Shown here: positions 15,055 to 38,542 of the stretch, piece by piece
Position numbering within the stretch: position 1 is the stretch's first letter
Layout: each line of letters begins with the position of its first letter
Assembly: GCA_028280405.1 (NCBI GenBank)
Contig: JANQLW010000025.1
Location: 5,905-69,904 of the forward strand
From: Bacteroidales bacterium
Lineage (GTDB): Bacteria > Bacteroidota > Bacteroidia > Bacteroidales > GCA-2711565
Reading direction: 5' to 3'
Length of the DNA stretch: 64,000 nt
Program-made: the position numbers and the translations under genes
Notes under the pieces: generated by a model
Told to the model about the DNA's origin: nothing
What the model saw: the letters and a program-made list of their open reading frames with translations, nothing else
Databases searched by the model: none

Positions 15055-15085
15055 AAAAGTCCCGATAAAATCGGGACTTTTTTAT
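15055..15085. terminator. Bidirectional rho-independent-type hairpin
   Basis: AAAAGTCCCGA-taaaa-TCGGGACTTTTTT. A-run and T-run flank a 7-bp GC-rich stem. It abuts the stop of the minus-strand gene 15085..16542. Confidence 0.75.
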
Positions 15086-16542
15086 TATAATTTGAACCAA
15101 TCTTTAATAAGTCCTGTTTTATCTTCAGGTTCATGTTTATGCCTGAATTCATTTGTCTGATTATTATAGATATAATCTTTAGCCCATTCTTTATGATGAT
15201 TATTCACCTGCTTAATGGCCTCAATGGTAAAATGTAGTTCTTTATTTGTCATGATGGGGTGCAGCGATAAACGAATCCATCCGGGTTTCTCTGTTAAATC
15301 ACCTGAATTGATCTTCTTCGTGATCTCATGAGAGTCATCATAACTTACATCTAATAGATAATGGCCATAAGTCCCTGCACAGGCACATCCCCCTCTAACC
15401 TGAATTCCAAATCTGTCATTCAATAATTTCACAACCAAATTAAAGTGTATGCCCTCAAGATAGAATGAGAAAATTCCTAATCTGTTTTCAACATTATCAG
15501 CAAGAATGTGCAAACCTTCTATCTTTCTCAGTTCTTTAAATGCAATTTTAGTTAGTTGAGTTTCTCTTTTATGAATGTTTCTGGTACCCATTTGATTTTT
15601 AACTTCGATGGAAAGAGCTGCACGAATTGTTTGAAGGAATGGGGGGGTACCGCCATCCTCACGGGTTTCAATATCATCAATGTATTTGTATTCTCCCCAT
15701 GGGTTGGTCCAGTCTACAGTTCCTCCTCCGGGATTATCTGGAGTTGTTGTGGTATATAGAGAAGAATCAAATACCAAAATTCCGGGAGTTCCAGGCCCAC
15801 CTAAAAATTTATGTGGTGAGAAGAAGATGGCGTCTAATTTCTCCATCGGATCTTCCGGGTGCATATTGATATCAACATAAGGAGCAGAAGCAGCATAGTC
15901 AATAAAACAAACGCCGCCGTATTCATGCATAATTTTCGCCATTTCATGAACAGGTAAAATAATACCTGTAACATTGGAGCAAGCAGAAAAAGATCCGATC
16001 TTAAACTGTCTGTCTTTATAAATTTGAAGTAATCCTCTTAATTTATTCAAATCAACCAAAAGATCATCACCCGGAGGTATAATTACAACATCCACATTTG
16101 TTTCATACCAGGAAGTTTGATTTGAGTGATGCTCCATATGTGTGATAAATACGACCGGCCTTTCATTATCAGAAGGACATTTACAACTGGGAGCCTGTTG
16201 TCCTTTTAAGCCCATAAATCGTTGTAATTTAGAAATAACGGAAGTCATGCCGGATCCTGCAGAAATAATCACATCATTCTCTCCGGCATTCACATGTTGC
16301 TTAATGAGTTTTTGTGCCCAATGGTAAGATTTGGTCATGAGTGTTCCTGTTTCGGCTGTTTCAGTATGTGTGTTGGCAACCCAGGGGCCAAAAACTTTGT
16401 TCATTTGTTTTTCGATAGGAGCATACAACCTACCACTGGCAATCCAATCTGCATATAATAATTTCTTCTTGCCATAAGGGGTTTTGATTTTTAGATTGTT
16501 TCCTATAACGTTTTTTTTGAACTTCTTAAAGTGTTTTTCCAT
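15085..16542 (-). CDS. Class V aminotransferase-fold PLP-dependent enzyme (cysteine desulfurase/selenocysteine lyase-like)
   Basis: 485 aa. PLP-lysine context FFSPHKFLGGPGTPGILV. Class V fold pattern (ITHMEHHSN...). Confidence 0.8.
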   Translation of the reverse strand: MEKHFKKFKKNVIGNNLKIKTPYGKKKLLYADWIASGRLYAPIEKQMNKVFGPWVANTHTETAETGTLMTKSYHWAQKLIKQHVNAGENDVIISAGSGMTSVISKLQRFMGLKGQQAPSCKCPSDNERPVVFITHMEHHSNQTSWYETNVDVVIIPPGDDLLVDLNKLRGLLQIYKDRQFKIGSFSACSNVTGIILPVHEMAKIMHEYGGVCFIDYAASAPYVDINMHPEDPMEKLDAIFFSPHKFLGGPGTPGILVFDSSLYTTTTPDNPGGGTVDWTNPWGEYKYIDDIETREDGGTPPFLQTIRAALSIEVKNQMGTRNIHKRETQLTKIAFKELRKIEGLHILADNVENRLGIFSFYLEGIHFNLVVKLLNDRFGIQVRGGCACAGTYGHYLLDVSYDDSHEITKKINSGDLTEKPGWIRLSLHPIMTNKELHFTIEAIKQVNNHHKEWAKDYIYNNQTNEFRHKHEPEDKTGLIKDWFKL

Positions 16543-25940: not shown

Positions 25941-27062
25941 TTATAAGTACTTTTTTTTGAATTCTGTTGGAGTCAAATTTGTATGTTTTTTAAAAGCGGT
26001 ATTAAATGAAGATTTTGAATTAAAGCCAACATCATAAAAAACTTGTTGGATTGTGAATTTGTTATTTGGAAAATCTTTTAAGATTTTCATAGCTTTCTCA
26101 ATACGGTACTCATTTACAAAATCGAAGAAATGTTGCCCAATATGACTATTTATTAAAACGGACAATTCGCGCGATGGAATATTAAGCTGAGAGGATAATT
26201 CTTGTAAAGTAATAGATGGGTCAAGATAGGGCTCCTGCTCAATCATATGATTTTTTAATTGTTCTATTAATAAGGTTTGATTGTTGCTTTGTTCTGTTTC
26301 CGGCTTAATATGTTTAATAATACTATTTGTCGACTGTATTTTAAAATCAACATTTCTAAATAATTTAGGATGATATAAAGCTTTTAGTATAAACCAACAA
26401 AACATAAACAATGCACTTGTGATCAAAATAATATTAACCCACTTTAAGATATCATTGAAGTTTGTAAAAGGTAATATATCTTTCGCTATAGTAACAGGGA
26501 GGGTTATTAAAAAAATATTAATGGTTTGAGATAACAATTTGTAAATTGATATATTTCCACTGGAGTAATTTTCAAGGTATATTTTCTTATGTTTTCTTAA
26601 AACGGAGATTGTTGCAATAACATAGAATAAAGCTTGCAGTTTTAGCAGTATCGAGTTTGTTATCCATTCCAGCTGTTGAATGGGTTCACTTATTAAATCA
26701 TTTTTTGTAAAATATAAATCTGAAAAAAAATAAAATAACAAAACTGCATTATATAAGATAAATGGAATAGTATGCAATAAGTCCCTGAATCTTAGTCTGA
26801 AACCTATACTGCATATGGATAGTACGTATAGAAAGAATGAAGGAAATATTAAGAAAGTGAAGGTTTTTGTAAATAAAAACAATTTTAAATATTGACTTAT
26901 AAAAAGGCCAATTACATCAATAGCACAAAAAGTTATAAAGCTTACAAGTAACCCATTTGATAATTTATTTCTTGTTTTTACTGTTAACAAAAAGAGTGAC
27001 AGAAGTAAAGAAACAAAGATGGTAATTAAAGCAATTATTTTTACGATGCTGAGGTTGTCCAT
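25941..27062 (-). CDS. Membrane-anchored AraC-family transcriptional regulator
   Basis: 373 aa. About 7 N-terminal TM helices plus a C-terminal AraC double HTH (ITLQELSSQLNIPSRELS..., GFNSKSSFNTAFKKHTNLTPTEFKK). Confidence 0.85.
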   Translation of the reverse strand: MDNLSIVKIIALITIFVSLLLSLFLLTVKTRNKLSNGLLVSFITFCAIDVIGLFISQYLKLFLFTKTFTFLIFPSFFLYVLSICSIGFRLRFRDLLHTIPFILYNAVLLFYFFSDLYFTKNDLISEPIQQLEWITNSILLKLQALFYVIATISVLRKHKKIYLENYSSGNISIYKLLSQTINIFLITLPVTIAKDILPFTNFNDILKWVNIILITSALFMFCWFILKALYHPKLFRNVDFKIQSTNSIIKHIKPETEQSNNQTLLIEQLKNHMIEQEPYLDPSITLQELSSQLNIPSRELSVLINSHIGQHFFDFVNEYRIEKAMKILKDFPNNKFTIQQVFYDVGFNSKSSFNTAFKKHTNLTPTEFKKKYL

Positions 27063-29464: not shown

Positions 29465-29549
29465 GTGTGGGCTAGGTATTCATCCATTTTCCTTTCTCAA
29501 ATGAATCATTTGAATCTTTTATGATGTTTGTTTGAGCCAATTGAGCCAT

Positions 29550-30878
29550 TTATGAGCCAATTAGTTTATATGCAGTTCCTTTTCCAACATCACCGATTCT
29601 CTCTAATAGTTTTTTATCCTCCAACAACTCCTTTAAATCACGAGTTGCAGTAGCTTTTGAAACATCGCAAATTTCTTGATATATTGAGTTTGTTATTTTA
29701 CCATTTTTCTTAGTGTATAAAACAGCTTTGATTTGACGCTCATTTATACCAAGTTGCTTCAAAGAAGTTTCATTATAAATATCCTTTCTAAAAACTACCC
29801 CAAAATCCTTTCCATTATTTTCAAATTCAGGCTTTTGTAAACCGTGCTCTTTACATTGTTCAATAATTTTAATTGTTCCTCGCCCCTAAGATTCAACATG
29901 CCCTGCTCTAAAAAAAGCATTAGCAATATCAGGATTAAAAGGAATCGATGAATGTTTTTGCATTAAATTTTCGACTGTCCAATCTTCCGGTAACTGTCCA
30001 TAATTCCAAATCATAAGTTTATCATCATAAACGCTTATTTGAATTGGAACACCCATTGAATAATCTTTATGAGTAAGGGCGTTTAAAATTGCTTCCCGAA
30101 CAGCATCTTTTGGGTATTCGTAAGTTTCAACTCTGTGTATACCTTCATACGAGATAATTGCCTTGATGTACTTAGTGAAAAGTAAGTCAATTTTCTTTTC
30201 TACTTGTTCAAAAAGATTTCCCTTTACTTCGTCTTGAAATATCAATTCTGTATCTGACTGAAAATAACCGATTTTTATATATGCTCCTGTAAAATATTTT
30301 TCAGGGTCGGGATGAAAAAGCAATACAGATGCGCGTTTTAGATATGGTTTCTCAGTTAATTTTAAATTTTCAAGAATACTGATGTTTTGCTCAGTTAAAA
30401 CACTTTCGTCAATTCTCTTACTGATTATTGCCCTTTTCTTGAAAAACTCAAATGTTTCATTTTTTAAATCATCAACAGAAACATTAGGAACAGGAACGCC
30501 GTCCCATTTCTTTCCTTTCTTTTCAAGCATAAATTTATCTAAAGCAGCACCTTTTAGTTCTTGCTTAGTACTTCCGCTTCTATAATGATATTGTCCTTTG
30601 TAATTAACTGAAAAGGGTTGTGGCTCAACAACAATTTCAAGAAAGTTTCCTTTTTCTGTTTCAAGCAGATTAACATCTACCAAAATACCAAGAACATCTC
30701 TTACTTTATTTGGAATATCTTCAAGTAGCTTTTTTGCGTTATTAATACTGACAACTTCTCCTTTGTCGTTTTTGCCAATGTATATTTTACCTCCCTGTGC
30801 ATTTGCAAAACCGCAAATCCATTTTAGGTATTCATCACGCCAACTTTCTTTCCATTCTATGTTTTGGTTTTCTGCCAT
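29550..30878 (-). pseudogene. AlbA_2 (Schlafen-like) + HATPase_c_4 + wHTH putative DNA-binding/ATP-binding protein, interrupted by one in-frame TAG
   Basis: Track ORFs 29886..30878 and 29550..29762 are in the same frame. The gap reads through as ...AFFRAGHVES*GRGTIKIIEQCKEHGLQKPEFENNGKDFGVVFRKDIYNETS-LKQLGINERQ... The N-terminus MAENQNIEWKESW...GFANAQGGKIYIG is typical of AlbA_2 proteins. Starts 3 nt after the upstream gene's stop. Confidence 0.75.
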
Positions 30879-30881
30879 ATG

Positions 30882-32456
30882 TTATTTACTTTCCATTGTT
30901 TTCCAGAATTGTCTAATCTTAATGGTTTTAGGTTCATCAAGGTTTATTAATCCAAGCCCTGAGTCAAGCCTGTTAATTTCATTGATGAGTTTATGTTCAC
31001 TCCTCGGTGTTCCAACAAACGCTTTAATCATTTTTGGGTCTTTGTTTTGAATGTTTAAGCAAATCGGTAGTTTTACTTGAGAAGCAAAGTCAAAATCTTT
31101 TGTTTTATAATCTTCTACACCTTGTGATAGCATTACAACAATAACTCCTTTTGAGCGAAGAAGTCTTAATAAATCTTCAAGAGCTTTACGAGCATTTTTA
31201 TTCTTTAAATAGATATGTGCTTCATCAATGACAATCACATATCTCAGAGGCATAATATTTTCTTTCGGTTCGGAATCATTCGCTGAACTAAAAAAGAAAT
31301 TAAAATATCTCAGAAGTAGAAAAACACATAATTGTCTTAAAGTGTCAGATAATGTTGGCGGTAGATTCAAATAAATACTTTTCTCAATGATGTTTTCTGA
31401 AATATCATCTGAAAACAAACCACTTGACAAGTCCTTAATAGCAGCAAGTAAAGTATCAGGTTTTGTTTTAGTTGCTTCGTAATATTCTTCAAGAGCTTCT
31501 GAAAGTTCTGTCATATTTGGATAAGTGTCGCCCTTTTCTTCAATCAAGTTTGTAATTACTGATTGCAAGATGTGTTTCTGTGAAGTTCCCATTTGCGGAA
31601 CAAATGTTCCAATCGTGTCAACAAAAGCTTTGATACTAAAGGTTTTTTGTCTTTCTCCCTCACTAATATTAATTGAGCTAAGAGGATTAAAATTAAATCC
31701 ATCATTTAGAATGTCAATAAACTCACAGTTAGTTTTATCTAAGAATAGTTTTAATTGTGAAGCATTACCTTCTCCTTTATAATCAAAGAAAATGTATTTA
31801 AGTTGATTTTCAGTATTAGCAGAGATTTGATATAAAACATCTTTAATCAGCTGAGTTTTACCAGATCCTGCCATGCCCGCAATAGCAATATTCCTGTTGT
31901 CAAATTCCGTTAAATCATTTATTTTTATTTCAACTTCTTTGTTTTCTTCCGTTGTACCAAGAATAAAAGATAATGGTTCTAAATATTCTTTAACTGCTGT
32001 TTGCTGCTGAACACCACTTGCAATTGAAACAGTATTAGATTGTAAATCAAGCCCATTTTTTACAAGTTTCATTAACAAAGCAATATGACCACCGCTTGTA
32101 AAGTCTGTTTTAGAAAGCTTTTTATCAATTTCTGACAAACCATGGTCTAAATGAAGCTTAAACAGCTTTGAAAAATCCTCCTCGTAAAGTGATTGATTGT
32201 AATGTTTATCAAGTATTGCTTTATAAATTGGATAGTTAGTACGGTTTTCTACAATCGTTCCAAACAAGCCTCGGTCATCTCTGAAATCTCTACCATCTGA
32301 ACTTGGTACTACATCCACATTAACATCAAAATGCTTATTTGTTTGAACACTGTAAGCAAATGCCAATCTTGGCACAACTCCCTCCGAATTGAATTCATAA
32401 ATCGACTTTATTCTTTCGATTACTTCATCGTTTTGTTTACTAATTCTTATTCTCAT
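30882..32456 (-). CDS. DndE-like N-terminal domain fused to an FtsK/HerA (DUF87-type) P-loop ATPase
   Basis: 524 aa. N-terminus MRIRISKQNDEVIERIKSIYEFNSEGVVPRLAFAYSVQ resembles the DndE pattern (r.s....e.l..lk......pN...R.A...S). Walker A IAIAGMAGSGKTQL. Walker B RYVIVIDEAHIYL. Later VIVVMLSQ. Overlaps the upstream gene by 17 nt. Confidence 0.75.
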   Translation of the reverse strand: MRIRISKQNDEVIERIKSIYEFNSEGVVPRLAFAYSVQTNKHFDVNVDVVPSSDGRDFRDDRGLFGTIVENRTNYPIYKAILDKHYNQSLYEEDFSKLFKLHLDHGLSEIDKKLSKTDFTSGGHIALLMKLVKNGLDLQSNTVSIASGVQQQTAVKEYLEPLSFILGTTEENKEVEIKINDLTEFDNRNIAIAGMAGSGKTQLIKDVLYQISANTENQLKYIFFDYKGEGNASQLKLFLDKTNCEFIDILNDGFNFNPLSSINISEGERQKTFSIKAFVDTIGTFVPQMGTSQKHILQSVITNLIEEKGDTYPNMTELSEALEEYYEATKTKPDTLLAAIKDLSSGLFSDDISENIIEKSIYLNLPPTLSDTLRQLCVFLLLRYFNFFFSSANDSEPKENIMPLRYVIVIDEAHIYLKNKNARKALEDLLRLLRSKGVIVVMLSQGVEDYKTKDFDFASQVKLPICLNIQNKDPKMIKAFVGTPRSEHKLINEINRLDSGLGLINLDEPKTIKIRQFWKTMESK

Positions 32457-34533
32457 AGCTTTGGAAATAACCAGGTTTAAAAATAGATTTCTTGTTTTCG
32501 TTAACTATCAAATATGATTTAGAAACCTTATCCGAAATTGATTTATATCGGCGTGGTGTAATCTCATTATTAGTAGCTAATAATACAACCTGACTTGATA
32601 AATCAGGGTAATAGTTATTTAAAATATTCTCAATATGTTCATGGTCTAATCTACCTAAAGGTGTATCGATGAATATTGGGAAATTCTGAATTGATTCGCT
32701 GAGAATAGCTTTAATTAAGCAAGAAATAAAAATCTGCTTTTCGCCTGTAGAGAAACTTTCTTTTGGTATCTCATTACCTTCTGAATCTAAAATTGAAACT
32801 TTAAGCCCCTTCCCGTCAGGAAGAATGTCAATTCTGGAATCTTCAATAAAACTTGAACCTTCATGTTGCATTTTATGCATCAACTTTTGAAGTTCAGCCA
32901 ATAGATTATTCGCTAATGCTTCTTTTTTAGAACGTTTCTGATTGTCTATAAAAGTTTGTAAAGATTCAATATACTTTTTCGCTTTAGCAATCTTGTTTTT
33001 TATCAATTGATTACCACTACTTTTTTGAAGCAGAATGTTATATTTTTGGTTTAAACGAACATTGTCTTTCAAAAGCTTGTCCTTCTCGTTTTCAAGTGCA
33101 CCATTCTCCCCAATTATTTTTTCCAGTTTTCTCTCCGCTTCATCTTTCAAAGTAACTGTTTCTAAAATAGTTTCATCTTCCAAATCAGAATCAATCATTT
33201 TTATTTGTTTATCCTTTTCAGTTATTGCGAGTTGAACAGCATTAAACTCTGAAATTGTAGATTCAAAAACCTCTTTTGATTGTTGTTTTAATAGCTGAGA
33301 AGTTTTTAATACTAGTTCTTTATCTGCATTACTTAAATCAAGCTCAAATTCAAATATGTTTTCAGATTCTTTGACCTCAAAAAGTTCATTTAGTAAACTC
33401 TGAGCTTTATCTGAATAAAATATTTTGTTTTTGAATGACATTGAACCATCTTCAGGTTCGGGCGGTTGATTAAATAATTTCTCAATAAAATTATCAAGCT
33501 TTTTCTTAACTACCTCATTATTTTCAATATCTGATACAGATTGTACTTGCAAATCCAGTTGTTCAAGAACTTCTTCAATTTTACCACTAAGCATTGCCAA
33601 AGGTGCAAGTTCACTCAACTCATTGAAACGTTTTTCCAGTTCTTCTTTTTTAGATTGAAGTGCTGTAAGTTCGCTAAACAAGTCCTCTCTATTTAGAGAT
33701 GTTGTTTCCTTTCGGCTATTCTTATTCAAAAAGGTTTGGTATTCTTTGATTTTATCTTTTAACTCTTTAATACTGGTTTCATTAAGAGCTGATTTTAAAT
33801 CAATATCTTCAACTTTTCCTTTATTTAACTCAACGGCCTTTTCTGTATTTATAATTTGCTCCTTAATATTCGTGTTCGCACCCTCTTTTTTCAGGTTGTT
33901 ACTGTAAACTGAAATATCATCTTTAAGATTTTCGTATAAATCAAGACCAAGAAGTTTACCCAAAGCGTCATTTAGTACGTTTCCTTCATCTTTGGTCGAA
34001 AGTTCTGCCCACGAAGCAATTTTTTCAGCATCGAAGAATACGAATTTCGCAGCTTCTAAAGGAATCAGGTAATCATTTATAAAACTTATTTTGTCTTCAA
34101 TTTCAGTAAACAACTCTTCCCTCTGAGAATTCAACACCGATAAGCTTTCCTCTATTTTACTTATATTAAATACACGCTTAATTACAATCTTATTATCAGA
34201 AACTTTAAGGTTAGCAGGGTAATCAATTTCCTCAAACTGTATTTCAATCGAAAAATCAGTATTGTTTTCGTTTTTTGAAGTCCAGTTTAAGGATTGCTTT
34301 ATAAACTTCTGGTAATTAGTTTCTTTTTGAACCTCTCGCTTGAAGTTTTCATCAATTTGGGTAATTTTCTCACCGTAAAGACACCAAACAATCGAAATTA
34401 GAAAATTTGTTTTTCCGAAACCATTTTTACCTCCAATCAAGACAATGTTTTGATTTTCTTGAGTCTGCAAATCAATTTCAATAGTACCGTAGTACTGACG
34501 AAAATTGTCTAATATTATTTTACTTATTCTCAT
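32440..34533 (-). CDS. DndD-like SMC/ABC-type ATPase with a long coiled-coil insert
   Basis: 697 aa. MRISKIILDNFRQYYG N-terminus. Walker A GGKNGFGKT (residues 34-42). About 350 aa of heptad-rich coiled coil. C-terminal FSTGEKQ signature and IFIDTPLGRLD...QVVLLATNNEI, the DTPLGRLD-type Walker B/D-loop block I associate with DndD. Confidence 0.85.
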   Translation of the reverse strand: MRISKIILDNFRQYYGTIEIDLQTQENQNIVLIGGKNGFGKTNFLISIVWCLYGEKITQIDENFKREVQKETNYQKFIKQSLNWTSKNENNTDFSIEIQFEEIDYPANLKVSDNKIVIKRVFNISKIEESLSVLNSQREELFTEIEDKISFINDYLIPLEAAKFVFFDAEKIASWAELSTKDEGNVLNDALGKLLGLDLYENLKDDISVYSNNLKKEGANTNIKEQIINTEKAVELNKGKVEDIDLKSALNETSIKELKDKIKEYQTFLNKNSRKETTSLNREDLFSELTALQSKKEELEKRFNELSELAPLAMLSGKIEEVLEQLDLQVQSVSDIENNEVVKKKLDNFIEKLFNQPPEPEDGSMSFKNKIFYSDKAQSLLNELFEVKESENIFEFELDLSNADKELVLKTSQLLKQQSKEVFESTISEFNAVQLAITEKDKQIKMIDSDLEDETILETVTLKDEAERKLEKIIGENGALENEKDKLLKDNVRLNQKYNILLQKSSGNQLIKNKIAKAKKYIESLQTFIDNQKRSKKEALANNLLAELQKLMHKMQHEGSSFIEDSRIDILPDGKGLKVSILDSEGNEIPKESFSTGEKQIFISCLIKAILSESIQNFPIFIDTPLGRLDHEHIENILNNYYPDLSSQVVLLATNNEITPRRYKSISDKVSKSYLIVNENKKSIFKPGYFQSYENKN

Positions 34534-34714
34534 TTTCTAACGCCTTTTCAATTTCTGAATCAATTGTTTGATGAATATAATGATTTCGCTTTTGCAGTTT
34601 TTTCAAACGCTCGGATTGTAGTAGTTTATCCATTGATTTAAGATCAACTCCGTTTTCTTTACAGATTGAGTTTAGTTCCTCAATATGTTTTTTCTTTATC
34701 TTATCAATTTCCAT
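34520..34714 (-). CDS. Small charged helical protein, translationally coupled on both sides
   Basis: 64 aa (MEIDKIKKKHIEELNSICKENGVDLKSMDKLLQSERLKKLQKRNHYIHQTIDSEIEKALENENK). Overlaps the upstream gene by 11 nt and the downstream gene by 14 nt. Confidence 0.6.
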   Translation of the reverse strand: MEIDKIKKKHIEELNSICKENGVDLKSMDKLLQSERLKKLQKRNHYIHQTIDSEIEKALENENK

Positions 34715-36986
34715 ATATGTCTTGTATTAATTCTTTTGTTTCGATATACATACTTTCATGTTTTGGAGTTAATTCTCCATTTTCATACTGTTTAGTTTGG
34801 CGATAGTAAAAATGATAAAGATTGGACTCATCTTCATTTTTTGCGCTTGGCAACCTTTTATTCAACTTAATGAATTGATTCAATTCAACATATGAAGAAT
34901 CCATATTTTTCGGGTTTCGCCTAACAAGTTTTACATAGCCGTATTTTTCAACTAATTCATTTATTTTATCACTCTTACTTTTTTCAATTCTATTTTTGTT
35001 TGCATTATTAAGTTGAACATTCATAAAACGATACAATTTTTGCTCTTCTTCACTCCCCGAAGAAAAAGGCAGTCTATTATTATCATTAGTAAACTTCGAT
35101 AGCAATTCAAAATTTTCCTTCCATGTTCTGCGAACTATCTTTGTATTATTGTTTCTAATGAACTCATCATTGTATTCCTTGGCAATTAATCCAATATGGT
35201 AATTTTTAAAGAAAAGAAAGCGTCTGTTTTCAGCAGACTTTAGGTTGTAAAGTAAATTTTTAGATGTTACGGAAGGTCTATATTGAGAGACATATTCTCT
35301 TATATCATCAATATGTTTTGGTGTTTCGAATTGAATTAGAAATTCCTCTGCAATATCATGCATTGTACCTCCTTTAACGGTTTTATCTTTTTCCCATTCA
35401 CGTAACCCGTAAGTACTGCTTCTTCCAAAATAAATTATTTCCGGGTCTCTTTGGCAACTACCTCTCAATGCTTCTGCACTTTTCGTAACATTTGGGTGCT
35501 TGGAAATAAGAATATCATATATCTGATAAATATCTAATGGCTCATTCTTTTCCTTTAAAATATCATAAACATATTCAATTACCTGCTTTTTAGTATTTCT
35601 TCTAAAGGTTATTTGGTCTAATGTATCAATGGTTATTTCAAATTCATTGAAAATAATATGCTCAGCTATTTGTGTAACTTTGATAAAGTCTGATTCAAAT
35701 CTTTCTTTCAGAAAAGAAGTTAAATAAGCTTCAAAATGGAAAGAATAATCTTCTTCTATCCTGTTTGATAGCCTATTATTTATATCAATTGCAAGGGATT
35801 CAAAATTGAATATGCTTTCTATTTCTTTGTTTACTATATAAATTGATCTCCACTTATATGCTCCACTTTTCGGTTTTGGACCATAAAAAGCACAGGTTTC
35901 AAAATTACCAATTAAGGTATGAGTTTTACTTAAAATTATGGAAAGTATCTTTGTAACAAAGATATTGTTGTATTGAACAGATTCTTTTTGTTGGATTTCC
36001 TCTATTAGATTTTCATCAATTACTATAAATTCTGAATTAACATCAATTCCATAAAGGTTTAATGCATCAAATTCAAGTCCTTTTAAAAAACTGAATTCGA
36101 TATCAATTTTCTCAAGTATCTTATTTCTAATCTGACGAGTTCTTTCTCTCGTGATTCCAACTTGAGAACCAATATTCTCTAGTGTTTCAGTTTTGTAATC
36201 TAACCAAAAGTTAAAGCCTTTCTTGAATATCTCTAGCTCCTTTTCTTTAAACCTAAATATTTTTGAAATTAACGTATCTATTGTTTTAAAGATAGGTAAC
36301 CCATTCTTGGAATCATAATTTTCCCAAATTTGAATAATATCATTTGGGTTAAGGCAAAACTTTCTGCGTAAGTAAGTGTTAAATAACTCAATCGTTAATT
36401 CGTCATCATTTTCAAAAAGCTGAACAATCTCTATCTGCTCACGGATTTCTTTAAAGAATTGGAATAGCTCATCAACTGATTTTTTGCCAATATTTTTAAT
36501 TTTTCCTAAATCGTATCTTGAGTCAATCAAGATTTCTTTGAATCCACGAATCGTCAAGTTTGAATCCGATATTTTTTCAATTGCGTTTAGACTTCTAACT
36601 GATAGATTGCTTGCTTGGGATTCAATAAGGTTATTTAGAATCTTCTTTTGTCTTACTGTTAAAGAATCAATTTGCTTTTCAATTGGATTTTCGGGCTTTT
36701 CCTTGATTGGTCTTGAAATGAAATCATCATATTTTTGGCATAATTTAATAAGTTCTGTATTCGATTTTTGTCCGCAATTCCTTAATCCTAAAAAATCATT
36801 GTTCTCCCAAAAGTAGTTTAGTATTGCGAGTAAATCATTAAGACCATTCCATTCGCAAACATTTGACGAGCGAACACTCAGGTTCTCTTTATGAGTTAAT
36901 TCTCTTAAACTAATATTTTCTTTATCAACGTCCATTCTCAAATATACAAAATCCTTTGTGGGTTGGGAAATTGCACTCTTTTGCAA
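34704..36986 (-). CDS. Large multi-HTH DNA-binding protein: 2x RpoA-alphaCTD-like HhH, sigma-70 region-4-like HTH, 2x HARE-HTH-like, 2x helicase-associated (HA) repeats
   Basis: 760 aa. LSVRSSNVCEWNGLNDLL...LRNCGQKSNTELIKL and LSVRSLNAIEK...IKNIGKKSVDELFQF (alpha-CTD-like). ENIGSQVGITRERTRQIRNKILEKI (sigma r4-like). VIEYVYDILKEKNEPLDIYQIYDIL...YFGRSSTYGLREW (HARE-HTH-like). C-terminal W..NF..L..F...N.RLP...EE.KLY.F repeats (HA-like). No catalytic motif seen. An alternative start is MDVDKEN at ~36935. Confidence 0.75.
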   Translation of the reverse strand: MQKSAISQPTKDFVYLRMDVDKENISLRELTHKENLSVRSSNVCEWNGLNDLLAILNYFWENNDFLGLRNCGQKSNTELIKLCQKYDDFISRPIKEKPENPIEKQIDSLTVRQKKILNNLIESQASNLSVRSLNAIEKISDSNLTIRGFKEILIDSRYDLGKIKNIGKKSVDELFQFFKEIREQIEIVQLFENDDELTIELFNTYLRRKFCLNPNDIIQIWENYDSKNGLPIFKTIDTLISKIFRFKEKELEIFKKGFNFWLDYKTETLENIGSQVGITRERTRQIRNKILEKIDIEFSFLKGLEFDALNLYGIDVNSEFIVIDENLIEEIQQKESVQYNNIFVTKILSIILSKTHTLIGNFETCAFYGPKPKSGAYKWRSIYIVNKEIESIFNFESLAIDINNRLSNRIEEDYSFHFEAYLTSFLKERFESDFIKVTQIAEHIIFNEFEITIDTLDQITFRRNTKKQVIEYVYDILKEKNEPLDIYQIYDILISKHPNVTKSAEALRGSCQRDPEIIYFGRSSTYGLREWEKDKTVKGGTMHDIAEEFLIQFETPKHIDDIREYVSQYRPSVTSKNLLYNLKSAENRRFLFFKNYHIGLIAKEYNDEFIRNNNTKIVRRTWKENFELLSKFTNDNNRLPFSSGSEEEQKLYRFMNVQLNNANKNRIEKSKSDKINELVEKYGYVKLVRRNPKNMDSSYVELNQFIKLNKRLPSAKNEDESNLYHFYYRQTKQYENGELTPKHESMYIETKELIQDIYGN

Positions 36987-37043: not shown

Positions 37044-37492
37044 TCTCCAACTGCCCCGAAGGGTAGAAGCGGGTAGGCAAAAACTAATTTTTTTTGCACC
37101 AACCTTTCAATCAATGAGTCAGTATTTTCTATCCGTTTTTTCAAATTTTATAATCAGTTTCATTGTTTGCTGTTTCATTCTTTTGCTTGCAGTTAACGGT
37201 TGTGCCTATTTAAATTACACATAAACTTCTAAAATCAAGATATAAACACAATTTAAACAATGCTTAAGTAAACTGTATATAGTAAAATAAGTTATTCGAG
37301 TAAATTAGTTATTGTTTCTTGCAAGTTCCTTACAATATAAGAAAATTATTGGATTTTTAAATCTTTTATTATGCCTTCCAGCTTTTGATCTCAAATAGCT
37401 TCTGTTTGAGCAACATCTTCTTTTTGTTGCTAATTTAATTTTTCTTATTTTAGTTATTGATACCATGTTTTTTTTAGTTAAAAATAAAAAAT

Positions 37493-38542
37493 ATGAATAG
37501 TGAGATAAGTATTCTTATAATCTCTGGTGTAGGTATCCTGAATGGTCTGGCTTTTGGTGTATATCTTATTTTTACTAAAATTGGCAACAGGAAAGCCAAT
37601 ATCTTTTTAGGTTTGTTTGTAATATTGATTTCGATACGGTTTATAAGATCAGTAAATTTTTATCTTACACCTGTCTATAATCATACAGAGTTTTTTATAA
37701 GCTCAACGTGTTTTTTACTTTTAGGGCCGGTACTATATTTATATGTAAAAGCCAATCTGGGAGATAAGTTGCAGTTAAAAGCTTATGATTTTCTACAGAT
37801 ATTTATTTTGCTTCCTTTACTACTTATTTCTTTAGACTTACCTGATTATTTGCCAATATTTAAATTACTTACCTATTCTTCTTTAGCTATTCTGTTAACT
37901 TATACGATTCTAGCTTTAAATAAACTTTTAAAAGTTATCAGGCGTAAAAAGAAAAATAGAAAGTTCATTACCATATCACAGATAAATTGGATTAGAAACC
38001 TGTTGTTCCTTATTATTATCAATACTTTTCTATATGGAATAAATCTTGAATATAGAATTGTACCAAATATTTTTGGAGCCACCTCTTATGCTATAATATT
38101 ATATGCGATCTTTATTTATTGGAGTAAGCTACAATTTTTACGGAAGCAACGATCAACTCTCGAAAAATATAAAAATGCTGTTTTTGATAAAAGAAAAGCT
38201 CAGGAACATATTGATGTTCTGCTCTTAAAAATAGAAAAGGAAGAATTATATAAAGATTATACCATTACCTTGCCAGAACTCGCACGCATTCTTTCAGTAC
38301 CCCAACATTACCTGAGTATGATTATCAATCTGAATTTAGGCAAAAACTTCTCTGAATTTATGAATGATTATCGTATTGATGAAGCTTGTAGAATGTTAAG
38401 AGATGAGAAATATGCAAGCGAATCTGTACAATCAATTGCCTATACTTCCGGATTTAATTCAATTTCTGTTTTTTATACTTGTTTTAAGGAGCATACAGGA
38501 GTAACACCAACAGAGTATAGGAAAAAAAATCCTGATTTATAA
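37493..38542 (+). CDS. Membrane-anchored AraC-family transcriptional regulator
   Basis: 349 aa. Multiple N-terminal TM helices plus an AraC double HTH (ITLPELARILSVPQHYLS..., GFNSISVFYTCFKEHTGVTPTEYRKK). Same architecture as 25941..27062. Confidence 0.85.
   Translation: MNSEISILIISGVGILNGLAFGVYLIFTKIGNRKANIFLGLFVILISIRFIRSVNFYLTPVYNHTEFFISSTCFLLLGPVLYLYVKANLGDKLQLKAYDFLQIFILLPLLLISLDLPDYLPIFKLLTYSSLAILLTYTILALNKLLKVIRRKKKNRKFITISQINWIRNLLFLIIINTFLYGINLEYRIVPNIFGATSYAIILYAIFIYWSKLQFLRKQRSTLEKYKNAVFDKRKAQEHIDVLLLKIEKEELYKDYTITLPELARILSVPQHYLSMIINLNLGKNFSEFMNDYRIDEACRMLRDEKYASESVQSIAYTSGFNSISVFYTCFKEHTGVTPTEYRKKNPDL

What the first reader, a model, noticed from the sequence alone, without database searches (positions are those of the whole stretch)
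30882..36986. Dnd-derived four-gene core (multi-HTH protein, 64-aa protein, DndD-like SMC ATPase, DndE-like::HerA/FtsK ATPase) with no sulfur-transfer or restriction partners: candidate uncharacterised defence/DNA-surveillance system
What the sequence shows: four minus-strand genes overlap by 11, 14 and 17 nt, the arrangement expected for translational coupling, and a fifth gene starts 3 nt after the last stop.

What family knowledge adds: the 697-aa protein has the DndD hallmarks. These are the N-terminal MRISKI.LDNFR, Walker A GGKNGFGKT, a long coiled coil, FSTGEKQ, and IFIDTPLGRLD…VVLLATNNEI. The 524-aa protein begins with a segment matching my recollection of the DndE consensus. It continues into an FtsK/HerA-type P-loop (GMAGSGKT; VIVIDEAH). 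In canonical dndABCDE clusters, DndD and DndE work with the cysteine desulfurase DndA/IscS and the PAPS-reductase-like DndC to make phosphorothioate DNA. DndB regulates, and DptFGH or SspE restricts.

None of those genes is in this window. The only class V PLP enzyme is 14 kb away behind housekeeping genes. Instead the operon leads with a 760-aa protein made solely of DNA/RNAP-interaction modules (alpha-CTD-like HhH x2, sigma r4-like HTH, HARE-HTH-like x2, HA x2).

Inference: the DNA-handling half of the Dnd machinery (SMC-like ATPase plus a DndE-type domain, reported to bind nicked DNA) has been recombined with a hexameric-translocase-type ATPase and a large DNA reader. The result would be a modification-independent module. 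It would resemble SMC-based defence systems such as Lamassu and Wadjet, and HerA-partnered systems. I do not recognise this gene combination as any named system. I cannot verify that from the sequence alone.
Basis: partly seen in the sequence, partly recalled or inferred. Interest (0 to 1): 0.9.

Follow-up and report, generated by a model that had tools for sequence, protein, structure and literature searches.

The report
Dnd-derived ATPase operon lacking sulfur enzyme
This is a conserved four-gene Bacteroidota operon built from the DNA-handling half of the phosphorothioate (Dnd) machinery, with the sulfur-inserting enzyme replaced by a fast-evolving DNA-reading protein; its core was already noted computationally, but this variant has never been tested and its function is unknown.

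Summary
Four minus-strand genes overlap by 11, 14 and 17 nt. HMMs confirm a DndD-clade ABC ATPase, a DndE::HerA/FtsK fusion and a multi-HTH protein. The 64-aa protein is Pfam Sp-DndD. The window has no DndC catalytic domain and no DndB; DptF/G, SspB-E and PbeA/B/D did not appear in a PADLOC summary scan.

The core of Sp-DndD, DndD and DndE::HerA/FtsK is not unrecognised. It has a Pfam family, and Rakesh et al. (NAR 2024) describe the fusion beside a DndD-related ATPase.

What I add:
- Sp-DndD is the detached C-terminal tail of DndC, the region reported to dock on DndD.
- The nearest relatives outside this class (about 30% identity) are DndC-DndD-DndE::HerA operons. Other classes carry an N6-methyltransferase instead.
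- In the Bacteroidota class, 40 of 41 metagenomic loci with enough upstream sequence, plus the genome and assembly loci with enough sequence, keep all four genes in order. None of about 92 loci has the DndC catalytic domain.
- The multi-HTH protein evolves fastest and shows no recognisable catalytic fold.
- The fifth gene is accessory and carries a TAG nonsense codon here.

Most likely this is a modification-independent DNA-surveillance module, probably against mobile elements. That function is inferred, not shown. Novelty: a new variant of a known kind.

The parts
34704..36986 (-). Multi-HTH 'reader' gene. The ORF runs from TTG at 36986; the likely real start is ATG at 36935, giving 743 aa. 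Approximate modules in window coordinates: alpha-CTD-like HhH 36735-36932 and 36444-36662; sigma region-4-like HTH 36105-36254; central about 160-aa domain with no recognised structural match 35586-36074; two HARE-HTH-like winged helices about 35388-35588 and 35166-35372; two HA-like helical modules about 34953-35129 and 34713-34919.
   Evidence: Pfam and NCBIfam hits. A family profile against PDB sequences hits sigma70 region 4 (3.5e-5), alpha-CTD (3e-4) and the HA domain 2KTA (2.6e-4). The alpha-CTD motifs LSVRSxN and GKKS are aligned. The AF2 model has pLDDT 86. Neither the whole chain nor the central domain matches an enzyme fold. HARE-HTH rests on weak hits (PF05066 in two homologues).
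34520..34714 (-). Sp-DndD, a 64-aa helical protein homologous to the C-terminal tail of DndC. Its start overlaps the upstream gene by 11 nt.
   Evidence: PF20306 at 34.6 bits, above the 27.2 threshold. It matches the last about 55 positions of the DndC models (TIGR03183 395-445 of 447; PADLOC 403-460 of 481). tblastn with DndC proteins hits only 34529-34711 in the window, at 36-37% identity. DndC proteins in loci L016 and L017 carry PF20306 at their C-terminus.
32440..34533 (-). DndD-clade coiled-coil ABC ATPase, 697 aa. It overlaps Sp-DndD by 14 nt.
   Evidence: TIGR03185 at 274.5 bits, above the 245.85 cutoff. PADLOC DndD 1.4e-92, with PbeC scoring almost the same at 2.4e-92. Walker A (GxxNGxGKT), FFDAEK, signature (SxGEKQ), Walker B/D-loop (FIDTPLGRLD) and TNxE residues are invariant or nearly so in 54 orthologues. 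No CxC motif is present.
30882..32456 (-). DndE::HerA/FtsK fusion, 524 aa. The DndE domain (two ribbon-helix-helix repeats by family knowledge) covers about 32112-32453. The P-loop translocase-type ATPase covers about 30897-31979. It overlaps dndD by 17 nt.
   Evidence: Pfam DndE E 5.4e-12, AAA_10 and DUF87. PADLOC DndH C-terminal ATPase 6.9e-26 and mad8 5e-21. The only solved relative is DptH, 7ES4, at 2.6e-14. Walker A G194-T201, Walker B D411-H414, and R431 and R434 are invariant in 41 orthologues.
29550..30878 (-). Accessory fifth gene (SLFN_AlbA_2, HATPase_c_4 and a C-terminal HTH), inactivated by a TGG to TAG nonsense codon at 29886-29888. It is not part of the conserved core.
   Evidence: Pfam hits. 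It aligns in one frame over 442 codons with the intact 441-aa Maribellus orthologue, with a stop in place of W331. The same truncation appears in a Logan assembly contig, possibly from the same source organism. Only about 7 of 47 loci have any closely apposed co-directional downstream ORF, and these belong to unrelated families.

Best explanation
This operon is a Bacteroidota-specific derivative of the DndC-DndD-DndE::HerA/FtsK type of phosphorothioation cluster, with no modification enzyme.

**Shown.**
- The DndD-clade ABC ATPase and the DndE::HerA/FtsK fusion are intact and under strong purifying selection.
- The catalytic (PAPS-reductase-like) part of DndC is gone.
- The C-terminal tail of DndC survives as the separate, translationally coupled 64-aa Sp-DndD.
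- A 640-990-aa protein now occupies the DndC position. It is made of DNA- and RNA-polymerase-type binding modules (alpha-CTD-like, sigma region 4-like, HARE-HTH-like, HA) and has no recognisable enzyme fold.

**Inferred mechanism.**
1. Sp-DndD clamps onto the DndD head and coiled-coil neck, as the DndC tail is reported to do.
2. A DndD dimer together with the DndE domain scans or loops DNA in an ATP-dependent way.
3. The fast-evolving multi-HTH protein supplies target choice. Candidate targets are AT-rich or promoter-like DNA, modified DNA, or an invader factor.
4. The HerA/FtsK ring fused to DndE translocates the engaged DNA. This could interfere with replication, transfer, packaging or transcription of a mobile element, or hand the DNA to host or accessory factors.

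The most likely biological role is surveillance or exclusion of foreign DNA that does not depend on DNA modification.
For: **Identity of the parts.**

**Sp-DndD is the DndC tail.**
- Evidence is the HMM matches, tblastn and alignment.
- DndC proteins in L016 and L017 carry PF20306.
- PMC12193691 reports that the DndD head binds DndC residues 433-482 and that coiled-coil-1 binds the last DndC helix, based on AF3 models and pull-downs.

**Descent from a phosphorothioate-type operon.**
- The nearest relatives of both the fusion and DndD outside the class are those of the DndC-DndD-DndE::HerA operon L018 (31% and 30% identity).
- Next come the other DndC-linked loci, then the methyltransferase class.

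**Conservation as a unit.**
- The genome and assembly loci that extend far enough keep the order of the genes they cover.
- 40 of 41 metagenomic loci with at least 4.7 kb upstream have all four genes in order.
- 0 of 80 metagenomic loci have a DndC catalytic domain.

**The reader protein behaves like a specificity or sensor subunit.**
- Mean pairwise identity is 38.5% for the multi-HTH protein, 51% for Sp-DndD, 60% for DndD and 69% for the fusion.
- The multi-HTH protein is the least conserved large protein in 99% of pairs.
- Its length varies from 639 to 993 aa.

**Mobile or defence context, partial.**
- Flanks differ even between close relatives.
- Neighbours in some loci include GmrSD_N, WYL, SspE/Orf5-like, HEC-06, type I and III methyltransferases, BrxHI, integrases and IS elements.

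**Published proposals.** Rakesh et al. propose DndD-DndE as a DNA-scanning core and suggest that HerA/FtsK domains in such systems intercept invader DNA.
Against: - No experiment exists for any member of this class.
- No nuclease or other effector is conserved, so how an invader would be harmed is unknown.
- In this window, and in several relatives (for example L009 and L096), the flanks are housekeeping genes, not a defence island.
- The neighbour survey had no control set.
- An unlinked DndC elsewhere in the genome cannot be excluded from a 64-kb window.
- The central about 160-aa domain of the reader protein has no structural match and could hide an activity.
- I could not read Krishnan et al. 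2020, which may already describe this exact variant.
Confidence: 0.55

Rival explanations
1. The operon still serves DNA modification. The DndD/DndE::HerA core recruits an unlinked enzyme: a DndC encoded elsewhere together with housekeeping IscS, or a methyltransferase. The multi-HTH protein would then only set site specificity or regulate.
For: Relatives of the core are coupled to DndC or to N6-adenine methyltransferases. Rakesh et al. note many DndDE pairs without phosphorothioate genes and suggest other modifications. A class V aminotransferase lies 14 kb away.
Against: None of about 92 loci of this class has a DndC catalytic domain within up to 9-10 kb. A methyltransferase appears only sporadically as an apparent neighbouring R-M system. 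The DndD-docking tail of DndC is present as a free peptide, which would occupy the site an unlinked DndC would need. Rakesh et al. state that no housekeeping PP-loop ATPase can substitute for DndC.
Confidence: 0.12
2. The operon is not immunity. It is a transcription- or chromosome-associated module, or a maintenance or transfer function of a mobile element. The alpha-CTD, sigma-4 and delta-like modules would bind promoters or RNA polymerase, and the two ATPases would remodel or move DNA. One analogy is a TraY-like ribbon-helix-helix protein combined with a coupling-protein-like ATPase.
For: All recognised modules of the reader protein have RNA-polymerase paralogues. The fusion ATPase also hits VirB4, TraC and VirD4-like models. 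The DndE fold resembles TraY according to Rakesh et al.. Flanks are housekeeping in this window.
Against: The operon sits at different loci in close relatives. The reader protein diverges rapidly. Some neighbours are defence or R-M genes. No relaxase, T4SS, replication or partition genes were seen next to the loci whose gene tables were listed.
Confidence: 0.15
3. The multi-HTH protein carries an unrecognised catalytic activity, such as a nuclease or a base or backbone modifier, in its central about 160-aa domain. The operon would then be a conventional restriction or modification system with a novel enzyme.
For: The central domain is the best conserved part of the protein. It has invariant or nearly invariant acidic, basic and aromatic residues (E431, D437, N447, K450, the EEDYSFHFETYL motif). 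It has no structural match.
Against: There is no Pfam, PADLOC, NCBIfam, PDB or BFVD similarity to any enzyme. The predicted secondary structure looks like repeated helix-helix-strand units similar to winged helices. The best weak hits are tandem winged-helix proteins.
Confidence: 0.1
4. The operon is a decaying remnant of a phosphorothioate cluster with no function.
For: The DndC catalytic domain has been lost. The fifth gene carries a nonsense codon. IS insertions occur in two related loci.
Against: All four ORFs are intact with translational-coupling overlaps. The ATPase motifs are invariant across 41-54 orthologues down to about 55% identity. The gene order is kept in 40 of 41 loci.
Confidence: 0.03

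Closest known systems
DndD-related ABC ATPase with DndE::HerA/FtsK fusion and Sp-DndD ('clade-3' HerA/FtsK of Rakesh, Aravind and Krishnan, NAR 2024; Krishnan et al., NAR 2020; Pfam PF20306)
   Same: It has the same three-gene core and the same fusion architecture. The ATPase domain belongs to the same HerA/FtsK radiation as DptH.
   Different: [quoted passage not shown] This class has no DndC and no methyltransferase, and instead has a large multi-HTH partner. That partner is not mentioned in the 2024 main text. I could not read the 2020 paper.
Canonical DndABCDE phosphorothioation system
   Same: The DndD clade ATPase scores above the TIGR03185 cutoff. A DndE domain is present. The DndD-binding tail of DndC is present.
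   Different: There is no DndC catalytic domain, no DndB and no linked DndA. DndE is fused to a HerA/FtsK ATPase. The system cannot insert sulfur by itself.
DndFGH / DptFGH restriction module
   Same: The fusion's ATPase is homologous to the C-terminal HerA/FtsK motor of DptH (PADLOC DndH 6.9e-26; PDB 7ES4 2.6e-14). A published abstract ascribes DNA nicking and DNA translocation to the DndFGH complex. The idea that this ATPase domain is the motor follows Rakesh et al..
   Different: DptF and DptG were not found, and the N-terminal domains and nuclease of DptH are absent.
PbeABCD (CxC ABC ATPase, DndE, HKD-helicase and small protein)
   Same: It pairs a coiled-coil ABC ATPase with a DndE-type protein and a small protein. 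The PbeC HMMs score as high as the DndD HMMs.
   Different: There is no CxC zinc hook, no PbeA HKD nuclease-helicase, and the small protein is a different one.
Methyltransferase-linked sister class (Castellaniella L014; L019-L022)
   Same: It contains Sp-DndD, DndD and DndE::HerA in the same order.
   Different: The front genes are a HSDR_N_2, N6_Mtase and Eco57I-type enzyme plus an S-like protein, with an extra protein of about 215 aa. Identity to the window proteins is only about 23-27%.
SMC/ABC-based and HerA-partnered defence systems (Wadjet, Lamassu, Sir2-HerA, HerA-DUF4297)
   Same: The general logic of a coiled-coil ABC ATPase or a hexameric HerA-type ATPase acting on DNA is similar.
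   Different: No kleisin or KITE subunits, no JetD or LmuA-type nuclease, and no Sir2 or DUF4297 effector are present. HerA defence HMMs match only the P-loop region, at E 1e-5 to 1e-9.
MzaA of the MZA system
   Same: The sigma region-4-like HTH matches the C-terminus of MzaA (E 9.3e-5). A distant homologue of the reader protein lies beside a Z1, HATPase_c_3 and C5-methyltransferase cluster.
   Different: Only about 45 residues match. MzaB-E are absent from the window.

Membership tests
DndD (TIGR03185; DndD clade of coiled-coil ABC ATPases) | Full-length match above the curated cutoff | tested here: met
   274.5 bits against a 245.85 cutoff, covering residues 1-690 and model positions 1-650 of 650.
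DndD (TIGR03185; DndD clade of coiled-coil ABC ATPases) | Intact Walker A, signature motif, Walker B and D-loop; no CxC zinc hook, which would place it in the CxC/PbeC clade | tested here: met
   The motifs are invariant in 54 orthologues. 0 of 54 have CxC in the coiled-coil apex.
DndE (PF08870 / TIGR03184) | DndE domain detected | tested here: met
   PF08870 scores 46.4 bits against a threshold of 25, over residues 2-115. The equivalog model TIGR03184 scores only 23.9 against a cutoff of 71.85, so this is a divergent, fused DndE, not the canonical stand-alone protein.
Sp-DndD / DndD / DndE::HerA-FtsK core (Aravind-lab description; Pfam PF20306) | DndE fused to a HerA/FtsK ATPase in one polypeptide, adjacent to a DndD-related ABC ATPase | tested here: met
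   The description is in PMC10853773, section 22.
Sp-DndD / DndD / DndE::HerA-FtsK core (Aravind-lab description; Pfam PF20306) | Small Sp-DndD protein encoded upstream of DndD | tested here: met
   PF20306 scores 34.6 bits against a threshold of 27.2. It is present in 40 of 41 related loci.
Canonical DndABCDE phosphorothioate modification system | DndC (PAPS-reductase-like sulfurtransferase) in the cluster | tested here: not met
   tblastn with three DndC proteins finds only the tail, which is Sp-DndD. 0 of 80 related loci have the catalytic domain.
Canonical DndABCDE phosphorothioate modification system | Linked DndA or IscS cysteine desulfurase, and DndB | tested here: not met
   No DndB was found. 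The only Aminotran_5 gene is 14 kb away among housekeeping genes.
Canonical DndABCDE phosphorothioate modification system | Phosphorothioate present in genomic DNA | not testable with these tools
   This needs LC-MS or iodine cleavage.
DndFGH / DptFGH | DptF and DptG genes, and the full-length multi-domain DptH of about 1,700 aa | tested here: not met
   Only the C-terminal ATPase of DndH matches (model positions 1317-1713 of 1715). No DndF or DndG family appears among the window ORFs.
PbeABCD | CxC-type ABC ATPase, PbeA HKD nuclease-SF2 helicase, and the PbeB small protein | tested here: not met
   No CxC motif is present. There is no PbeA or PbeB hit. The PbeC HMM scores reflect DndD/CxC homology.
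Wadjet / Lamassu (SMC-family defence) | Kleisin or KITE partners, or a LmuA or JetD effector | tested here: not met
   No such hits for proteins 1, 2, 4 or 5. Of the 57 PADLOC families hit by the ATPase, the top 25 are all DndD or PbeC; the rest were not displayed.
MZA system | Full-length MzaA together with MzaB-E | tested here: not met
   MzaA matches only the sigma-4 region (21.4 bits against a cutoff of 800). There is no MzaB-E in the window.
MADS | The mad1-8 operon, including its methyltransferase | tested here: not met
   Within the operon only mad8 matches, and only the ATPase domain (5e-21). A mad3 hit and a second mad8 hit elsewhere in the window were not located, and nothing shows them to be linked to this operon.

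The most novel reading that the evidence does not exclude
The operon is an immune or exclusion system with no nuclease and no DNA modification. Its sensor would display copies of the RNA-polymerase modules that phages most often hijack (alpha-CTD, sigma region 4, delta-like HARE-HTH).

The sensor could act in two ways. It could be a decoy or guard for phage transcription-takeover factors. Or it could read foreign promoter-like DNA.

The output would be purely mechanical. The DndD/Sp-DndD/DndE::HerA machine would loop and pump the invader DNA, blocking its replication, packaging or transcription.
Probability: 0.12. Interest if true: 0.85.

Novelty: new variant of a known kind. Interest (0 to 1): 0.52.

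Why it matters
What DndD and DndE do mechanically, apart from sulfur chemistry, is still argued. The open points include sparse and partial modification of consensus sites, ATP use, and claims of nicking.

This operon is a natural separation-of-function case. It keeps the DNA-handling half of the machinery, together with DndC's docking peptide, and has no modification enzyme. That makes the scanning or translocation activity testable on its own.

It also suggests a simple modular rule. The Sp-DndD or DndC-tail region would be the socket that keeps DndD competent, while different front-end genes are swapped in: a sulfurtransferase, an N6-methyltransferase or a multi-HTH reader.

If the operon proves to be a defence system, it would be a widespread Bacteroidota system with no obvious effector enzyme. 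Bacteroidota defence is comparatively little studied.

Tried and rejected
1. **Genome scan.** An alignment query would have reached further.
2. **Metagenome scan.** A scan with the very diverse alignment A2 failed because it had no conserved stretch. I repeated it successfully with the closer alignment A6.
3. **Literature.** Krishnan et al. 2020 (gkaa726, PMC7544218) is not held. The supplements of the 2024 paper contain none of the search terms. No paper contains 'Sp-DndD'. Searches for DndD-like or DndDE systems and for DndD with HerA found no experimental work on this class.
4. **MADS preprint.** It gave no information on the domain content of mad8.
5. **Enzyme fold in the reader protein.** Fold searches of the whole chain (PDB) and of the central domain (PDB and BFVD) gave nothing significant.
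6. **Promoter and terminator scan.** It found fewer promoter-like sites than shuffled sequence, and the sigma-70 consensus is not appropriate for Bacteroidota. I did not use it.
7. **Cassette boundaries.** Repeats flanking the cassette are short and could be chance. No tRNA or integrase flanks it in the window.
8. **Conserved extra genes.** An upstream gene of about 812 aa seen in both L002 and L008 turned out not to be homologous between them. The fifth-gene position holds unrelated families: SLFN_AlbA_2, RecQ-like, DUF2130, HsdM, UDG and biotin carboxylase. I therefore rejected the idea of a conserved effector gene.

Full report
**1. Observation**

The ORF map confirms four minus-strand genes: 34704..36986, 34520..34714, 32440..34533 and 30882..32456. 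They overlap by 11, 14 and 17 nt. A fifth ORF, 29886..30878, begins 3 nt after the last stop. Gene callers on public assemblies start the first gene at Met18, giving 743 aa and an end at 36935. Base composition across the operon (GC 0.30-0.32) is not distinct from the flanks.

**2. Identity of the parts**

- **The 697-aa protein** is a DndD-clade ABC ATPase.
  - It matches TIGR03185 at 274.5 bits, above the 245.85 cutoff. PADLOC gives DndD 1.4e-92, with PbeC scoring almost the same.
  - Its Walker A, FFDAEK, signature, Walker B/D-loop and TNxE motifs are invariant or nearly so in 54 orthologues.
  - There is no CxC zinc hook, so it belongs to the DndD clade and not the PbeC/CxC clade.
- **The 524-aa protein** has a DndE domain at residues 2-115 (PF08870, E 5e-12), fused to a HerA/FtsK-type P-loop ATPase (AAA_10, DUF87).
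  - Its best defence-library match is the C-terminal ATPase of DndH/DptH (6.9e-26), followed by mad8 (5e-21).
  - The only solved relative is DptH, 7ES4 (2.6e-14).
  - Walker A, Walker B and two arginines are invariant in 41 orthologues.
- **The 64-aa protein** is Pfam PF20306 'Sp-DndD, small protein found in certain Dnd DNA modification systems' (above threshold).
- **The first protein** matches RNA_pol_A_CTD and Sigma70_r4 above threshold, and HA just below it.
  - A profile of 86 homologues hits sigma70 region 4, alpha-CTD and an HA-domain structure in the PDB sequence set.
  - The alpha-CTD motifs LSVRSxN and GKKS align with real alpha subunits.
  - HARE-HTH is supported only weakly. The evidence is TIGR04567 at E 0.008, PF05066 in two homologues, and the predicted winged-helix pattern.
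  - The AF2 model is confident (pLDDT 86). Neither the whole chain nor the separately modelled central domain (pLDDT 88) resembles any enzyme in the PDB or BFVD.
- **The fifth gene** (SLFN_AlbA_2, HATPase_c_4 and an HTH) carries one TGG to TAG nonsense codon.
  - Otherwise it is in frame with the intact 441-aa Maribellus orthologue.
  - The same truncation is seen in a Logan assembly contig, which may come from the same organism or data.

**3. Absences**

DndC and DndB proteins taken from related loci were searched against all six frames of the window. They hit only the Sp-DndD gene. A PADLOC summary scan of the other 47 window ORFs listed 10 matched families. None was DndB, DndC, DndF, DndG, DndH, SspB-E or PbeA/B/D. 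It did show weak DndA and SspA-type hits; the window's one class V aminotransferase, at 15085..16542, is the likely source, but the summary scan does not map hits to ORFs. That gene sits among housekeeping genes.

**4. What is already known**

[quoted passage not shown] They cite Krishnan et al. 2020.
- They also argue that DndD-DndE is a DNA-scanning core that can be coupled to other modifications.
- They add that many DndDE pairs lack phosphorothioate genes.

The core is therefore not new. I could not access the 2020 paper. The 2024 main text mentions HARE-HTH only as a fusion to restriction endonucleases. I found no experimental work on this class.

**5. Comparative genomics**

The fusion architecture is widespread.
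- 478 representatives at 50% clustering score E <= 1e-3.
- 945 clusters at 90% identity match a profile of distant members.
- DndE together with a HerA/FtsK-type P-loop domain is confirmed by Pfam in 9 of 10 divergent representatives.

Context falls into classes.
- **(a) Phosphorothioate type.** These loci carry DndC next to the fusion, with DndD in two of three. Examples are L018 from a Bacteroidia MAG, L017, and L016, where no DndD gene was called.
- **(b) Methyltransferase type.** The order is an N6_Mtase/Eco57I enzyme, an S-like protein, Sp-DndD, a protein of about 215 aa, DndD and the fusion. Examples are Castellaniella L014 and L019-L022.
- **(c) A Solibacillus form.** Here a DEAD/PRTase helicase and a DprA-like gene lie downstream.
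- **(d) The window's class.** The order is multi-HTH, Sp-DndD, DndD and the fusion.

Class (d) appears in Labilibaculum, Maribellus, Belliella, Maribacter, Flavobacterium and many metagenomic Bacteroidota. In a metagenome scan of 80 loci at 53-91% identity:
- 40 of 41 loci with at least 4.7 kb upstream carry all three partners in the same order.
- The one exception lacks only a detectable small ORF.
- Two loci have an IS110-like insertion between genes 1 and 2.
- None has a DndC catalytic domain.

Only about 7 of 47 loci have a closely apposed co-directional downstream ORF. Those ORFs belong to unrelated families, so the core is four genes.

**6. The new inference: Sp-DndD is the DndC tail**

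- Sp-DndD matches the last about 55 positions of the DndC models.
- It aligns end to end with the C-termini of three DndC proteins.
- Two DndC proteins next to fusion genes carry PF20306 at their C-terminus.
- An independent study reports that the DndD head binds DndC residues 433-482, and that coiled-coil-1 binds the terminal DndC helix. This is based on AF3 models with pull-downs (PMC12193691).

The window's DndD and fusion are closest, outside their own class, to those of the phosphorothioate-type Bacteroidia operon L018 (30-31% identity).

The simplest history is as follows. The catalytic part of dndC was replaced by the multi-HTH gene, or by methyltransferase genes in class (b). The docking tail was kept as a translationally coupled micro-ORF.

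**7. Mechanism (inferred)**

- Sp-DndD clamps the DndD head and neck.
- DndD and the DndE domain scan or loop DNA.
- The multi-HTH protein sets the target. It is the fastest-evolving component, with mean pairwise identity 38.5% against 51%, 60% and 69% for the others. It is the least conserved large protein in 99% of pairs, and its length varies from 639 to 993 aa.
- The HerA/FtsK ring translocates the engaged DNA.

Several observations fit an anti-mobile-element role. Close relatives carry the operon between different flanking genes. Some loci have neighbouring GmrSD, WYL, SspE-like, HEC-06, R-M and BREX genes, integrases and IS elements. The sensor-like subunit diverges quickly.

Other observations weaken that role. 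No effector enzyme is conserved. In this window the neighbours are housekeeping genes. The neighbour survey had no control set.

**8. Verdict**

The operon is a member of the computationally described Sp-DndD/DndD/DndE::HerA-FtsK family. It is not a member of the DndABCDE, DptFGH, PbeABCD, MZA, MADS, Wadjet or Lamassu systems. Within that family it represents a well-conserved Bacteroidota variant that has no modification enzyme and carries a multi-HTH reader. I rate it as a new variant of a known kind, of moderate interest. Its main value is as a natural tool to study what the Dnd DNA-handling core does without sulfur chemistry.

Noticed in passing
window 29886-29888 (within 29550-30878, minus strand): The fifth gene (SLFN_AlbA_2, HATPase_c_4 and an HTH) is interrupted by a single TAG where orthologues have Trp (TGG). 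The rest of the gene is in frame. The same truncated product is called on a Logan assembly contig (SRR20820735), which may derive from the same organism or data.
   Followed up: yes
window 29509-29526 and 37356-37373: An 18-nt imperfect direct repeat (16 of 18) brackets the five-gene cassette almost exactly, lying just beyond both ends. It could be an insertion scar or chance in AT-rich DNA. No empty site was available for comparison.
   Followed up: partly
window, ORFs outside 29550-36986 (not located individually): The PADLOC summary scan of the other window ORFs reported single members matching PDC-M72A (9e-39), mad3 (4.5e-27), Ankyrin (4e-25), a second mad8-like ATPase (2.5e-10) and CARF/Csa3-like models. 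I did not determine which ORFs these are.
   Followed up: no
L023 199-2862 and neighbours to 10862: A distant homologue of the multi-HTH protein (P0212, 28% identity) is not next to DndD. It lies beside a cluster of C5 DNA methylase, HATPase_c_3, Z1 (MzaC-like), DUF4420 (MzaD-like) and a PDC-S41 helicase. This suggests the reader module is shared with MZA-like defence islands.
   Followed up: partly
L041 3957-6743 and L042 2-1339: An IS110-like transposase gene is inserted between the multi-HTH gene and Sp-DndD in two metagenomic loci. This would uncouple gene 1 from the rest of the operon.
   Followed up: partly
L014 7293-7934; L019 7326-7985: In the methyltransferase-linked sister class, an extra protein of about 215 aa sits between Sp-DndD and DndD. 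The Castellaniella copy has a weak, sub-threshold Mrr_N winged-helix hit (E 4e-4). This hints that a small reader domain may recur in that class too.
   Followed up: partly
L018 581-7871: A Bacteroidia MAG carries DndC, DndD and DndE::HerA followed by overlapping HATPase_c_3 and Methyltransf_35 genes and an integrase. This is the closest phosphorothioate-type relative of the window operon and a possible ancestor-like arrangement.
   Followed up: partly
L002 11571-12944; L012 11572-13551: In two close relatives the gene overlapping the 3' end of the fusion gene is different. It is a DUF2130 protein (E 1.6e-86) in L002 and a RecQ-like helicase in L012. These may be alternative accessory partners.
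   Followed up: partly
window 25941-27062 and 37493-38542: Two paralogous-looking membrane-anchored AraC-type regulators (373 and 349 aa, with multi-pass N-termini and a C-terminal HTH) lie on either side of the cassette region, on opposite strands.
   Followed up: no
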